Shown here one piece after another: positions 6,703-17,644 of a stretch of DNA of 39,270 nucleotides (position 1 is its first letter; each line of letters opens with the position of its first letter). The notes beneath the pieces were generated by a model that made no database searches, was not told the origin of the DNA, and was given only the letters and a program-made list of their open reading frames with translations. The translations under genes and the position numbers were made by a program. Origin of the DNA: Escherichia phage 285P; the sequence record NC_015249.1. One strand, 5' to 3'.

Positions 6703-7734
6703 ATGGAAATCACATTCAAGACTAACCCTTTTAAAGCTGTATCCTACGTTGAGTCTGCCATTAAGAAAGCACTCGACAAAGCTGGCTACCTGATTGCTGA
6801 CACTAAGCATGATGGTGTGCGTGGTAACATCGTGGTTGATAATACGGCTGACTGCCTGTGGCTGTCCCGTGTCTCTAAGACCATCCCCGCGCTTGAGCAC
6901 CTTAATGGGTTCGACCAACGCTGGGCTAATGTTCTCAAAGATGACCGCTGGATTTTCCCTGATGGCTTCATGCTGGATGGTGAACTGATGGTCAAAGGCG
7001 TAGACTTCAACACAGGGTCTGGCCTACTGAGAACCAAGTGGCTCAAGAAGACAAACTGTGGATTTGATATTGGTGGAGTAGAGCCTCTCAAGGGGAGTAA
7101 AGTAGACTTCTGCTTAGACCCTAAGAAACTTAAGGTTGTCCTGTATGCCGCTATGCCGTATCACGATATGGTAGAAGGCAAAGAGTACGGCGTTATGTCC
7201 CTCCTGATGCAAGAGCATGTGCGTTCCCTCATTCCGGTTCTTAGCGAACACTTCCCGGAAATCACTTGGGAACTATCTGAGGCCAAAGAAGTCTACGATA
7301 TGGTAGAACTTCAGGAACTCTACGAGAAAGCCCGTGCCGATGGTCATGAAGGTCTGGTCGTCAAAGACCCGCTGGAAGTCTACAAGCGCGGGAAGAAGTC
7401 TGGCTGGTGGAAGATGAAGCCTGAGAATGAAGCTGATGGTGTCATCGTTGGACTCAATTGGGGTACTCCGGGTCTGGCTAATGAAGGTAAAGTGATTGGC
7501 TTTGAGGTTCTCTTGGAGTCCGGTCGTGTAGTCTCTGCCAACAACATTAGCCAAGCGTTGATGGATGAGTTTACTGCTGCCGTCAAACATGCTGAGTCTG
7601 TGGGTATGGGTATGCCTTACACTGGCTTCGCCTGTCAGGTTGCCTACATGGAGGAAACTCCTGATGGTTCTCTGCGTCACCCTTCGTTCGTTATGTTCCG
7701 TGGTACTGAAGATAACCCAACGGAGAAGATGTAA
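6703..7734 (+). CDS. 1.3: ATP-dependent DNA ligase
   Basis: 343 aa; KxDGxR adenylation motif (DTKHDGVRGN) and extensive identity to T7 ligase as recalled (GLVVKDP, KSGWWKMKPENEADG, EGKVIGFEVLLESGR, RHPSFVMFRGTEDNP). Confidence 0.95.
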   Translation: MEITFKTNPFKAVSYVESAIKKALDKAGYLIADTKHDGVRGNIVVDNTADCLWLSRVSKTIPALEHLNGFDQRWANVLKDDRWIFPDGFMLDGELMVKGVDFNTGSGLLRTKWLKKTNCGFDIGGVEPLKGSKVDFCLDPKKLKVVLYAAMPYHDMVEGKEYGVMSLLMQEHVRSLIPVLSEHFPEITWELSEAKEVYDMVELQELYEKARADGHEGLVVKDPLEVYKRGKKSGWWKMKPENEADGVIVGLNWGTPGLANEGKVIGFEVLLESGRVVSANNISQALMDEFTAAVKHAESVGMGMPYTGFACQVAYMEETPDGSLRHPSFVMFRGTEDNPTEKM

Positions 7735-7916
7735 TGATAATCTTTGACCAAGGCATTTGGAAGGTATGGCAACACCCACACTTACAGGTATTCCACATCC
7801 TGAAGTGGTCTGAGGGAGACGACCCAGCCTCTTATGGGCGCAAGTGGGATTACTTCACACAGAAAGAGTGTAGAAGCATATCCGAGGTAAAGGCATATCT
7901 TCACGCCAACATGTAG
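7734..7916 (+). CDS. hypothetical protein (gene 1.4/1.5 position)
   Basis: 60-aa ORF overlapping the ligase stop (TAATG); no recognised homolog. Confidence 0.4.
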   Translation: MIIFDQGIWKVWQHPHLQVFHILKWSEGDDPASYGRKWDYFTQKECRSISEVKAYLHANM

Positions 7917-7923
7917 TAACACT

Positions 7924-7958
7924 GGTCAGACTTTCGGGTCTGGCCTTTTCGTGTTTCT
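7924..7958 (+). terminator. intrinsic terminator, candidate early terminator TE for host RNAP
   Basis: Seen: GGTCAGAC-TTTCGG-GTCTGGCC 8-bp stem followed by TTTTCGTGTTTCT; T7 TE lies just after the ligase region. Confidence 0.6.
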
Positions 7959-7978
7959 ATTAGACTCACTATGGAGGA
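7957..7978 (+). promoter_or_regulatory. degenerate T7-type promoter-like element (CTATTAGACTCACTATGGAGGA)
   Basis: Seen: GACTCACTAT core but 1-nt short before GG and altered -17..-12; near-duplicate of the element at 8065. Confidence 0.35.
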
Positions 7979-7986
7979 ACAACCTC

Positions 7987-8067
7987 ATGCTATTTCTAAT
8001 TGCTGCTGCTGTCTTTGCCACGTTTGCCTTCGTTATCATTGACGACAACTGCTGGCCTGATTGCTAA
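7987..8067 (+). CDS. tiny hydrophobic peptide (26 aa, MLFLIAAAVFATFAFVIIDDNCWPDC)
   Basis: ATG 9 nt after a GGAGG; too short for the ORF track; hydrophobic. Confidence 0.25.
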   Translation: MLFLIAAAVFATFAFVIIDDNCWPDC

Positions 8068-8087
8068 TACGACTCACCTATGGAGGA
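8065..8087 (+). promoter_or_regulatory. T7-type promoter variant with 1-nt insertion (TAATACGACTCACCTATGGAGGA)
   Basis: Seen: perfect -17..-5 then CTATGG; GGAGG doubles as the RBS for the 8095 ATG. Confidence 0.45.
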
Positions 8088-8094
8088 AACACTT

Positions 8095-8358
8095 ATGTTA
8101 CGACTACACTTCAACAAATCAAACGGTATCTTTTCGGCTCGTGGTTCCGACCGCTCGACGGTTCTTGCCTCTGAGAAACATGCAGTCATTCCTAAAGTGC
8201 TTGGCTCGACCATTGAGTTAGCACCTCGTGTTCACGCTGTAATCACCACTGGCTTATATAAAGAAGCGACCACTGGCTCCCGGCCTTTCATTCCGGTTCT
8301 TGTCACCCGTTTCCCTAAAGTCCGTCTGGTCATTGCGCGTATCAAGGAGGTGTTCTAA
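8095..8358 (+). CDS. gene 1.6-like hypothetical protein
   Basis: 87 aa from the second Met of ORF 8080-8358 (the first Met lies inside the promoter); position after the ligase block matches T7 gene 1.6. Confidence 0.55.
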   Translation: MLRLHFNKSNGIFSARGSDRSTVLASEKHAVIPKVLGSTIELAPRVHAVITTGLYKEATTGSRPFIPVLVTRFPKVRLVIARIKEVF

Positions 8359-8669
8359 TGGTCTGTATGGCATGTTTAGAGAGTGATGACCGCTACCCAC
8401 ATACCTGTGAACCTGTAGCTAAACCACAAGATATAGAGGGTGTTCGGACTCCTAGCCACTATATGTTGTTTGACGACATTGAGGCTATCGAAGTGATTGC
8501 CCGGTCGATGACCCGTGAACAGTTCAAGGGGTACTGCTTAGGGAACATCCTTAAGTATCGCCTACGTGCTGGTAAGAAATCTGAACTAGCATTCTTAGAG
8601 AAGGACATGGCGAAAGCTGGGTTCTATGGTGAACTGTACGAGAAACACAAAGGTAAGTGCTATGCTTAA
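8358..8669 (+). CDS. 1.7: gene 1.7-like protein (short form of T7 nucleotide kinase gp1.7)
   Basis: 103 aa; CxxC...YPHTC and C-terminal SHYMLFDDIEAIEVIARSMT..FKGYC.GNILKYRLRAGKKSELA.LEKD match T7 gp1.7 as recalled, but ~90 internal residues of the T7 protein are absent. Confidence 0.7.
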   Translation: MVCMACLESDDRYPHTCEPVAKPQDIEGVRTPSHYMLFDDIEAIEVIARSMTREQFKGYCLGNILKYRLRAGKKSELAFLEKDMAKAGFYGELYEKHKGKCYA

Positions 8670-8763
8670 TGACATCTTATATTTCCTGCTAATTTGTGTT
8701 GGAATGGGTGCTTGCCTGTTCCTCATGTTTTGGGCTATAGAGGTGGAATATGGAAAAGCCTAG
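8662..8763 (+). CDS. tiny hydrophobic peptide (33 aa, [33 protein letters not shown])
   Basis: Overlaps the 1.7 stop in another frame; hydrophobic; weak RBS. Confidence 0.25.
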   Translation: MLNDILYFLLICVGMGACLFLMFWAIEVEYGKA

Positions 8764-16524: not shown

Positions 16525-16733
16525 TGGGTGAATATCTTCGTGTACTGGCGGCTATCAAAAGCTGCCCTAAGACCTTTCAGTCGAACTATGTGCGCAACAA
16601 TGCGTCACTGGTGGCTGAGGCTGCGAGTCGAGGTCATATCTCTTGCCTATCAGTCGATGGGCGTAATGCTGGCGCTTGGGAAGTAACGGGCGCTGGTGTC
16701 CGATTCCTGAAGAAGATGGGAGGTTGCGTATGA
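16524..16733 (+). CDS. 5.7: gene 5.7 protein
   Basis: 69 aa; near-identical to T7 gp5.7 as recalled (LRVLAAIKSCPKTFQSNYVRNNASLVAEAASRGHISCL). Confidence 0.85.
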   Translation: MGEYLRVLAAIKSCPKTFQSNYVRNNASLVAEAASRGHISCLSVDGRNAGAWEVTGAGVRFLKKMGGCV

Positions 16734-17644
16734 GCGCAATTACACTGAAGGAGTTCTATGAGTTACGCCAAGGTAAATCCGATAAGGGTGTCTTGGTCAT
16801 GGATGGTGACTGGCTGGTATTCCAAGCGATGGCAGCAAGTGAAGTCGAGACCGATTGGGGCGATGATTGCTGGACATTAGAGTGCGACCACGGGAAAGCG
16901 TGGAACATTCTGGTTGACTCCATTAAGTCCTATGCGAGCCGCAAGAAGGCTTGGCGTGATGCACCTATCGTATTGGCCTTCACCGACTCTGTGAACTGGC
17001 GTAAGGAATTAGTCGACCCAACCTATAAGGAGAACCGTAAGGCATCCCGTAAGCCTGTAGGCTACCGTGCGTTTGTCGAGCGTGTTCAAGCCTGTGAGGA
17101 CTGGACGTCTATCCTTGAGGACCGACTTGAGGGTGATGACGTAATGGGAATCATTGGGTCTGGTGCTAAACATTTTGGTTTCAAGAAGGCTGTACTGGTC
17201 TCCTGTGATAAGGACTTTAAGACCATCCCTGATTGTGACTTCTTGTGGTGCACGACTGGTAACATCTTGACTCAAGACCAGACGACTGCCGACTACTGGC
17301 ACATCTATCAGACCATCAAAGGTGACTTGACAGATGGCTATGGTGGCATTCCGGGCTGGGGAGAGACTACCGCTGAGTGGCTGGAGAACCCGTATGCCTT
17401 TGAACAGGTTGAGAAAACTTTCAAGTCTGGTGCTCGTAAGGGACAGACAGTTCTCGAATGGAAAAAGGTTGACATGGGTGAGCGAACCCTATGGGAAGCC
17501 ATTGTGACACTTGGTGCAAAAGCTGGGATGACCGAAGAGGAAATCATTAAGCAAGGCCAGATGGCTCGCATACTTCGATTCGAAGAGTACAACTTTATCG
17601 ACAAGGAGATTTACCTATGGTCGCCGGAACAGTTGCGTTCGTAA
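16730..17644 (+). CDS. 6: 5'-3' exonuclease gp6
   Basis: 304 aa from MSAITLKEFYELRQ; GVLVMDGDWLVFQAM, PIVLAFTDSVNWRKELVDP, DFLWCTTGNILTQ, KQGQMARILRF match T7 gp6; ATGA overlap with 5.7. Confidence 0.95.
   Translation: MSAITLKEFYELRQGKSDKGVLVMDGDWLVFQAMAASEVETDWGDDCWTLECDHGKAWNILVDSIKSYASRKKAWRDAPIVLAFTDSVNWRKELVDPTYKENRKASRKPVGYRAFVERVQACEDWTSILEDRLEGDDVMGIIGSGAKHFGFKKAVLVSCDKDFKTIPDCDFLWCTTGNILTQDQTTADYWHIYQTIKGDLTDGYGGIPGWGETTAEWLENPYAFEQVEKTFKSGARKGQTVLEWKKVDMGERTLWEAIVTLGAKAGMTEEEIIKQGQMARILRFEEYNFIDKEIYLWSPEQLRS

What the first reader, a model, noticed from the sequence alone, without database searches (positions are those of the whole stretch)
8358..8669. Gene 1.7 homolog is a minimal form lacking ~90 internal residues of T7 gp1.7
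The 103-aa product keeps the N-terminal CxxC...YPHTC segment and the conserved C-terminal ~70 residues of T7 gp1.7 (nucleotide kinase, 196 aa as I recall), but the long intervening segment is absent. This either defines the minimal catalytic core or indicates loss of kinase function with retention of another role.
Basis: partly seen in the sequence, partly recalled or inferred. Interest (0 to 1): 0.3.

Follow-up and report, generated by a model that had tools for sequence, protein, structure and literature searches.

The report
Short-form T7-type gp1.7 nucleotide kinase
This is an ordinary, already annotated phage gene (gp1.7 of Escherichia phage 285P): a short version of the T7 nucleotide kinase that keeps the one conserved domain of the family, as many related phages do.

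Summary
ORF 8358-8669 encodes 103 aa that align with T7 gp1.7 (196 aa) at the CxxC...DDRYPHTC motif (13/16 identical) and over the last 78 residues (68/78 identical). The numbers need correcting: 18 of the 93 missing residues are N-terminal, and the net internal loss is 75.

No start codon was missed. In-frame stops lie upstream, and the ATG overlaps the gp1.6 stop behind an AAGGAGG site.

The protein is not unusual:
- The exact sequence is gp1.7 of Escherichia phage 285P, annotated as nucleotide kinase, on a contig as long as the window.
- The 101-105 aa form is the commonest architecture among the 120 closest protein clusters.
- Shorter forms exist, down to 84 aa with the domain alone, so this is not the minimal form.

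The family has a constant C-terminal DUF3310 domain of 72-74 aa, here under strong purifying selection (dN/dS 0-0.17). In front of it sits a mosaic of optional N-terminal modules. The segment absent here models as a separate small Cys-rich domain on a disordered linker.

The most likely reading is a functional dTMP/dGMP kinase whose activity lies in the retained domain. That activity is inferred, not tested. Novelty: already known. Interest is low.

The parts
8344..8350 (+). Ribosome-binding site AAGGAGG, 7 nt upstream of the gene 1.7 ATG
   Evidence: Read directly from the sequence. It is invariant in the DNA alignment of six Berlinvirus relatives.
8358..8669 (+). Gene 1.7 coding sequence, 103 aa plus stop. 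The ATG overlaps the gp1.6 stop (TAATG).
   Evidence: ORF list. In-frame stops lie upstream. The exact product is gp1.7 / nucleotide kinase of Escherichia phage 285P. PHROG 2585 at E = 5.7e-58.
8364..8408 (+). Module B, residues C3-C17: C-x2-C-x8-H-x-C (CMACLESDDRYPHTC). It matches T7 C21-C35. It is a possible zinc knuckle; that is an inference.
   Evidence: Alignments. AF2 confidence is low here, block mean pLDDT 59-60. The module is optional in the family: A+D, C+D and D-only forms lack it.
8409..8432 (+). 8-residue linker EPVAKPQD, standing in place of T7 residues 36-118
   Evidence: Pairwise alignment. In S523, BA14 and FE44 a clean in-frame 60-nt (20-aa) Cys-rich insert sits at this position.
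8433..8666 (+). Module D, residues I26-A103: the DUF3310 domain (Pfam match at residues 29-90) with the invariant motifs PxHY and GN..KYRLRAGKK. It is the constant core of the family.
   Evidence: Pfam 78.7 bits. 68/78 identical to T7. 30-32 invariant columns in 60-62 homologues. dN/dS 0-0.17. AF2 helices 43-50, 53-73 and 77-100, block mean pLDDT 81-92.
8080..8358 (+). Upstream neighbour gene 1.6 (92 aa, BC10 family), translationally coupled to gene 1.7
   Evidence: Pfam BC10 at E = 4e-19. Same gene order as in T7, T3 and Berlinvirus relatives.
8662..8763 (+). Downstream neighbour gene 1.8 (33 aa from the ATG at 8662), overlapping the gene 1.7 stop
   Evidence: ORF list. Homologous CDS are annotated in S523, BA14 and T7. 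No Pfam match.

Best explanation
This is the intact, functional gene 1.7 of a Berlinvirus (Escherichia phage 285P). It belongs to the T7 gp1.7 / DUF3310 family of phage nucleotide kinases, in its common short 'B+D' architecture.

The family consists of a constant C-terminal DUF3310 helical domain of 72-74 aa (D). In front of it is a freely exchangeable N-terminal region built from optional modules:
- A: MGLLDG...
- B: the CxxC...HxC knuckle
- C: a small Cys-cluster domain followed by a Pro-rich disordered linker
- other Cys-rich modules

The window protein has B, an 8-residue linker and D.

Inferred mechanism. D carries the activity described for T7 gp1.7: metal-independent transfer of a phosphate from dTTP, dGTP or GTP to dTMP or dGMP. 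This helps recycle dNMPs released from host DNA by the phage nucleases. Endonuclease I and a 5'-3' exonuclease are both encoded in the window. The invariant basic patch K66-Y-R68-L-R70-A-G-K73-K74 and the P32-x-H34-Y35 motif are the likely substrate and phosphate contacts. The lost module C is an accessory domain, not part of the catalytic core.

What is shown: gene integrity, homology, architecture, selection and modularity. What is inferred: kinase activity of the short form, the active-site residues, and zinc binding by B.
For: Gene integrity: RBS, overlap with the gp1.6 stop, and no upstream extension possible.

Identity: the exact protein is annotated gp1.7 / nucleotide kinase in phage 285P. 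Near-identical 103-104 aa proteins occur in PYps49T, YepMm and PZJ0206.

D is the only recognised domain of T7 gp1.7 and is fully retained. It is 68/78 identical to T7.

Selection: dN/dS on D is 0-0.17 against eight relatives, with dS up to 2.

Architecture census of the 120 closest 90%-identity clusters:
- B+D: 34 clusters, the largest class
- B+C+D: 27
- C+D: 25
- A+D: 5
- D only: 2
- The tail from PxHY to the C-terminus is always 72-74 aa.

Across 2234 distant representatives, D lies at the C-terminus in nearly all of the 148 top-150 proteins that could be scored (6 carry more than 15 extra C-terminal residues). The N-terminal extension ranges from 1 to 266 aa.

Within Berlinvirus, four architectures differ only by clean in-frame indels in otherwise very similar DNA, most aligned columns being invariant.

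AF2 of a long form shows module C as a separately folded unit (block mean pLDDT 77-88). It is joined to D by a roughly 30-residue low-confidence linker.

T7 has an AAGGAG site before M42, giving a C+D product of 17.7 kDa. This is consistent with the reported second active form.

Literature: T7 gp1.7 phosphorylates dTMP and dGMP independently of divalent cations (PMC7693777; PMC11897194). From memory, not readable here: both T7 size forms are active (Tran 2010, 2012), and a 74-residue peptide confers ddT sensitivity (Tran 2014).

Genomic context: endonuclease I and a 5'-3' exonuclease are present.
Against: - No enzymatic data exist for any natural short form.
- The location of the active site in gp1.7 is not known from anything I could read.
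- Both experimentally characterised T7 forms contain module C, so a requirement for C is not formally excluded by the readable evidence.
- The fold of D matches no solved structure (best Foldseek E = 3.9; no PDB sequence match). Structure therefore gives no independent support for a kinase mechanism.
- Other DUF3310 proteins are known for toxicity or interactions with abortive-infection systems rather than kinase activity: SaV and mycobacteriophage proteins.
- The AF2 model has low confidence for residues 1-37.
Confidence: 0.72

Rival explanations
1. Kinase activity needs module C, which is absent here. On this view the short form has lost kinase activity and keeps only another DUF3310 function, for example a host-takeover or toxic interaction like lactococcal SaV, or oligomer scaffolding.
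For: - Both characterised T7 forms contain module C (literature from memory).
- Module C is a conserved folded unit with four Cys, nearly invariant T71, R76 and D79, and block mean pLDDT 77-88.
- DUF3310 proteins such as SaV and mycobacteriophage gp47, gp51 and gp54 are toxic and have no demonstrated kinase activity.
Against: - C is absent from at least half of the close clusters and from most distant DUF3310 proteins, while D stays under strong constraint.
- C has no Pfam family or structural match suggesting catalysis.
- C is tethered by a disordered linker.
- From memory, a 74-residue T7 peptide suffices for ddT sensitivity (Tran 2014). The conserved block of T7 gp1.7 is the 78-residue C-terminal D region.
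Confidence: 0.2
2. The short gene is a decaying remnant or pseudogene produced by a recent deletion in this phage.
For: It is 93 aa shorter than T7 gp1.7, and T7 gene 1.7 is non-essential in the laboratory (PMC9712115).
Against: - The reading frame is intact, with an RBS and translational coupling.
- The same architecture occurs in many independent phages and 34 clusters.
- dN/dS is 0-0.17 with substantial dS.
- All invariant family residues are kept.
Confidence: 0.02
3. Annotation artefact: a missed upstream start, a frameshift or a split gene hides a full-length T7-like protein.
For: Related records do contain mis-called starts. The S523 RefSeq CDS is 68 aa where the ORF is 123 aa.
Against: - In-frame stops lie upstream and gp1.6 ends exactly at the ATG.
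- No ORF in the region encodes module C.
- The DNA alignment with relatives shows a clean, in-frame absence.
Confidence: 0.01

Closest known systems
Escherichia phage 285P gp1.7 (ACV32458.1 / YP_004300545.1), and the 103-104 aa gp1.7 of Berlinvirus phages PYps49T, Yep-phi/YepMm, PZJ0206 and PhiV-1
   Same: Identical sequence for 285P, whose contig length of 39,270 equals the window length. The others are 94-99% identical with the same B+D architecture and the same position between genes 1.6 and 1.8.
   Different: Nothing of substance. These proteins are annotated 'nucleotide kinase' by homology only.
Bacteriophage T7 gp1.7 (196 aa), dTMP/dGMP kinase
   Same: The Cys motif matches (13/16 identical) and the DUF3310 C-terminal 78 residues match (68/78 identical). 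The genomic position is the same.
   Different: The window protein lacks T7 residues 1-18 (module A). It also lacks residues 36-118 (module C plus most of the Pro-rich linker), replaced by 8 residues. Activity, oligomeric state and ddT phenotype have been measured only for T7.
K1F-type gp1.7 (155 aa, C+D) and the T7 internal-start product from M42
   Same: Same D domain.
   Different: The module content is complementary: they have C but not B, while the window protein has B but not C. Together they show that neither B nor C is universally required.
T3 gp1.7 (163 aa)
   Same: The D domain is about 63% identical overall to the window protein, in the same locus.
   Different: Its N-terminal 85 residues are unrelated: no Cys motif, and neither module A nor C.
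SaV of lactococcal phages (sk1/p2) and other stand-alone DUF3310 proteins
   Same: They share the DUF3310 domain and a similar small size of about 100-130 aa. They are early genes. BFVD structural matches are labelled 'SaV-like'.
   Different: The sequences are distant (Foldseek E about 1e-2). SaV's known phenotype is toxicity and sensitivity to AbiV, and no kinase activity has been reported.

Membership tests
Pfam PF11753 (DUF3310) | HMM score above the gathering threshold of 24 bits | tested here: met
   78.7 bits, E = 3.4e-22, residues 29-90 covering profile positions 1-58 of 60. T7 gp1.7 scores 81.5 bits.
T7 gp1.7-type nucleotide kinase (PHROG 2585) | Close sequence homology to the conserved domain of T7 gp1.7 | tested here: met
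   PHROG 2585 at E = 5.7e-58. 68/78 identical to T7 residues 119-196.
T7 gp1.7-type nucleotide kinase (PHROG 2585) | Conserved position in the class II gene block, between gene 1.6 (BC10) and genes 1.8 and 2 | tested here: met
   gp1.6 BC10 lies upstream. Genes 1.8, 2, 2.5 and 3 lie downstream. The order is the same as in T7, T3 and BA14.
T7 gp1.7-type nucleotide kinase (PHROG 2585) | Full T7 domain architecture (A+B+C+D, 196 aa) | tested here: not met
   Only B+D is present: 18 N-terminal and a net 75 internal residues are absent. This architecture is not shared by most family members either, so it is not a good family criterion.
T7 gp1.7-type nucleotide kinase (PHROG 2585) | Metal-independent dTMP/dGMP kinase activity and conferral of ddT sensitivity | not testable with these tools
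   Needs an enzyme assay or genetics. The activity is known only for T7 (PMC7693777; PMC11897194).
T7 gp1.7-type nucleotide kinase (PHROG 2585) | Higher-order oligomer, about a 12-mer as I recall from Tran et al. 2012 | not testable with these tools
   Only single-chain prediction is available.
Classical P-loop (d)NMP kinases (Tmk, Gmk, T4 gp1) | P-loop NTPase fold, Walker A motif, and a match to kinase families or structures | tested here: not met
   No Pfam family other than DUF3310. No NCBIfam hit. No PDB sequence match. The all-helical AF2 model has no significant PDB fold match.
SaV-like proteins (AbiV sensitivity determinant) | DUF3310 domain plus interaction with AbiV and toxicity | tested here: inconclusive
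   The domain is shared, and there are weak BFVD matches to 'SaV-like' models at E about 1e-2. The phenotype cannot be tested here.

The most novel reading that the evidence does not exclude
The 72-74-aa DUF3310 domain alone may be a self-sufficient, metal-independent dNMP kinase with a fold unlike any solved structure. The rapid swapping of N-terminal modules (A, B, C, alternative Cys knuckles, partial duplications) may be driven by host immune sensors that recognise gp1.7/DUF3310 proteins, such as Avs5 for T7 gp1.7 and AbiV for SaV. On that reading, the short B+D form would be an evasion or regulatory variant rather than a neutral deletion.
Probability: 0.15. Interest if true: 0.45.

Novelty: already known. 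Interest (0 to 1): 0.1.

Why it matters
For this window it matters little. The gene is a known, annotated member of a known family in its commonest architecture.

The wider point concerns how the phage gp1.7 family is built. It has a constant DUF3310 core behind a highly mosaic N-terminus. Nature has therefore already made the deletion series needed to map the catalytic core of an unusual metal-independent kinase that has no structural relatives.

T7 gp1.7 has been reported to activate the Avs5 defence protein (PMC11897194). Natural module variants could therefore also be used to map what that sensor recognises.

Tried and rejected
- **Missed upstream start or split gene.** Rejected: in-frame stops lie upstream and gp1.6 abuts the ATG.
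- **Pseudogene.** Rejected on dN/dS and on the breadth of the same architecture.
- **Solved relatives.** phmmer and a profile search against PDB found nothing; the only match was Tektin-2 at E = 0.62, which is noise.
- **Fold matches.** Foldseek of the AF2 model against PDB gave only generic helical hairpins, best E = 3.9. A MazG-like PRA-PH hit at E = 8 and probability 0.16 is not evidence. The long-form model also gave nothing. BFVD returned only family members.
- **NCBIfam.** No model exists for this family.
- **Primary T7 gp1.7 papers.** I tried to read PMC2453740, PMC3436134, PMC4135679, PMID 20497505 and a guessed PMC id. None is held. A search for the '74-residue peptide' statement found nothing relevant. 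Those facts are therefore marked as recollection.
- **Recalled mass of the T7 internal-start form.** I recalled 17,782 Da. The computed mass from M42 is 17,711 Da, a 71-Da mismatch, so the exact start or my recalled figure is uncertain.
- **Zinc binding by module B.** It remains an inference, because AF2 confidence there is low.

Full report
**What is there**

The window is a complete T7-like (Berlinvirus) phage genome. It is about 96.5% identical to Enterobacter phage PZJ0206 over 25 kb.

The exact 103-aa product of ORF 8358-8669 is on record as gp1.7 / 'nucleotide kinase' of Escherichia phage 285P (ACV32458.1, YP_004300545.1). That record sits on a contig of 39,270 bp, the length of the window.

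The ORF is well defined:
- Its ATG overlaps the stop of gene 1.6 (TAATG).
- AAGGAGG lies 7 nt upstream.
- The frame is closed by stop codons upstream, so no longer protein can be made from this frame.
- The neighbours are gene 1.6 (BC10 family), gene 1.8, gene 2, gene 2.5 and endonuclease I. This is the order found in T7, T3 and BA14.

**Check of the observation**

- Window C3-C17 corresponds to T7 C21-C35.
- Window I26-A103 corresponds to T7 I119-A196, with 68/78 residues identical.
- T7 residues 36-118 are replaced by the 8-residue linker EPVAKPQD.
- T7's first 18 residues are also absent.

The 93-residue difference is therefore 18 N-terminal residues plus a net 75 internal residues, not about 90 internal.

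Pfam finds one domain, DUF3310, at residues 29-90 (78.7 bits). T7 gp1.7 itself has that same single domain at residues 122-184 (81.5 bits). PHROG 2585 'nucleotide kinase' matches at E = 5.7e-58.

**How the family is built**

The 120 closest 90%-identity clusters range from 84 to 181 aa. All end in the same block of 72-74 residues counted from the PxHY motif.

The N-terminal part is a mosaic of modules:
- A: MGLLDGxAWEKENPP
- B: CxxCLExDDRYPHTC
- C: MTEREQ...Cys cluster...ITLGEIRAMDPRK, followed by a Pro/Thr/Asp-rich linker
- a 20-aa Cys-rich insert
- at least three unrelated Cys/His-rich N-termini

The architecture census is as follows:

| Architecture | Clusters |
|---|---|
| B+D (the window's form) | 34 |
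| B+C+D | 27 |
| C+D | 25 |
| other Cys-rich module + D | 13 |
| A+B+D | 7 |
| A+D | 5 |
| D only (84 aa) | 2 |

The remaining six clusters fall into smaller classes such as A+C+D (2) and insert-bearing forms.

Within the single genus Berlinvirus, four architectures differ by clean in-frame indels in otherwise very similar DNA:
- window, PYps49T and PZJ0206: B+D
- S523 and BA14: B+insert+D, 123 aa
- Kvp1: A+B+D, 121 aa
- FE44: A+B+insert+D, 140 aa

An exhaustive search of 1.8 billion representatives found 2234 relatives at E of 0.001 or better. In the top 150, D lies at the C-terminus in nearly all (6 of the 148 scored carry more than 15 extra C-terminal residues). The N-terminal extension ranges from 1 to 266 residues, with a median of 77. 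Thirteen of the 148 proteins scored have fewer than 20 residues before D.

The window protein is therefore a common architecture. It is not a peculiarity of this phage, and it is not the minimal form.

**Is it functional?**

Nei-Gojobori dN/dS over 75 codons of D is 0-0.17 against eight relatives. dS reaches 1.4 against T7 and 2.1 against T3. All 30-32 invariant columns of the family alignments are kept. The gene is under strong purifying selection, which excludes a decaying remnant.

**Structure**

AF2 gives a confident three-helix domain for residues 43-100 (block mean pLDDT 81-92). The N-terminal 37 residues are low-confidence.

The domain has no significant match in the PDB by fold (best E = 3.9) or by sequence or profile. 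BFVD returns only gp1.7, DUF3310 and SaV-like models.

A T7-like long form (P0042, B+C+D) models module C as a separate small folded unit (block mean pLDDT 77-88). It is joined to D by a linker of about 30 residues with pLDDT below 50. Module C has no PDB match and no Pfam family. This fits a beads-on-a-string protein in which C can be lost or gained without disturbing D.

**Mechanism (inference)**

T7 gp1.7 phosphorylates dTMP and dGMP without needing divalent cations (PMC7693777; PMC11897194). It is non-essential in the laboratory (PMC9712115).

T7 has an AAGGAG site 7 nt before Met42, which would give a C+D product of 17.7 kDa. From memory, Tran et al. (2010, 2012) found two size forms, both active, in an assembly of about 12 subunits. 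Also from memory, Tran et al. (2014) found that a 74-residue peptide confers ddT sensitivity as well as the full-length protein. None of these papers could be read here.

Natural C+D forms lack B, natural B+D forms lack C, and D-only forms exist. Given this, the most economical reading is that D carries the activity.

The invariant basic patch KYRLRAGKK and the PxHY motif are candidate phosphate and nucleotide contacts. Module B (C-x2-C-x8-H-x-C) and its Cys/His-rich substitutes look like small zinc knuckles, but this is untested.

The window also encodes endonuclease I and a 5'-3' exonuclease. The T7 logic of recycling host-DNA-derived dNMPs therefore applies.

**Rivals**

- Kinase activity needs module C and the short form keeps only another DUF3310 role. 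I give this about 0.2. It is supported mainly by the absence of direct assays and by the toxicity and abortive-infection phenotypes of other DUF3310 proteins.
- Pseudogene, or a mis-called start. Both are effectively excluded.

**Comparison, novelty and score**

The protein is a member of Pfam DUF3310 and of the T7 gp1.7 family by sequence and synteny. It is not a P-loop NMP kinase. It does not have the full T7 architecture, but neither do most family members.

It is already in the databases under the expected name. The architecture has been in public records since the Yersinia phage Berlin and Kvp1 annotations. The Kvp1 note reads 'similar at C-terminus to ... gene 1.7 protein [Yersinia phage Berlin]'.

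Novelty: already known. Interest: 0.1.

The only mildly interesting by-product is the mosaic N-terminus of a protein recently reported to trigger Avs5. That link to immune sensing is speculative.

Noticed in passing
whole window (1-39270): The exact gp1.7 protein is recorded for Escherichia phage 285P on a contig of 39,270 bp, the same length as the window. The window is therefore very probably the published 285P genome. It is about 96.5% identical to Enterobacter phage PZJ0206.
   Followed up: partly
L005:959-1330 (Escherichia phage vB_EcoP_S523, NC_047984): RefSeq calls the S523 'nucleotide kinase' as a 68-aa CDS (L005:1124-1330). The ORF that starts at the gp1.6 stop is 123 aa and includes the Cys motif and a 20-aa Cys-rich insert. 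This is probably a truncated annotation.
   Followed up: yes
proteins P0001 and P0002 (metagenomic contigs, 158 and 162 aa): These gp1.7 variants look like partial tandem duplications. A first Cys module, linker and 'PQDKEGV' (the start of the DUF3310 domain) is fused directly to a complete A+B+linker+D copy. This points to recombination inside gene 1.7.
   Followed up: no
window 7734-7916 (+): A 60-aa ORF follows the ligase gene directly (ATGA overlap). It is shared with S523 and BSP161. Most other relatives' DNA similarity only begins around 7907-7956, so this is a variable insert between ligase and the early terminator.
   Followed up: no
window ~7918-7950, ~7958-7980 and ~8064-8086 (+): There is a GC-rich hairpin followed by a T-run (ggtcagactttcgggtctggccttttcgtg), like the T7 early terminator TE. 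Two T7-type promoter-like sequences follow (attagactcactatggagga and taatacgactcacctatggagga), placed like phi1.5 and phi1.6 (compare the annotations).
   Followed up: no
window 8626-8763 / 8662-8763 (+): Gene 1.8 has two possible starts. The ORF list gives 45 aa from the ATG at 8626. Annotated homologues use the ATG at 8662 (33 aa, hydrophobic), which overlaps the gene 1.7 stop. There is no Pfam match.
   Followed up: partly
cluster of the window protein in the protein collection: The 90%-identity cluster holding gp1.7 also contains two gp1.6 (BC10) sequences, P0274 and P0275. This is presumably a clustering artefact from fused or mis-called ORFs spanning genes 1.6 and 1.7.
   Followed up: no
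window 16676-17644 (+): The putative gp6 5'-3' exonuclease scores below the Pfam gathering threshold (30.3 against 34.3 bits for 5_3_exonuc_N). The listed TTG start probably lies upstream of the real start.
   Followed up: no
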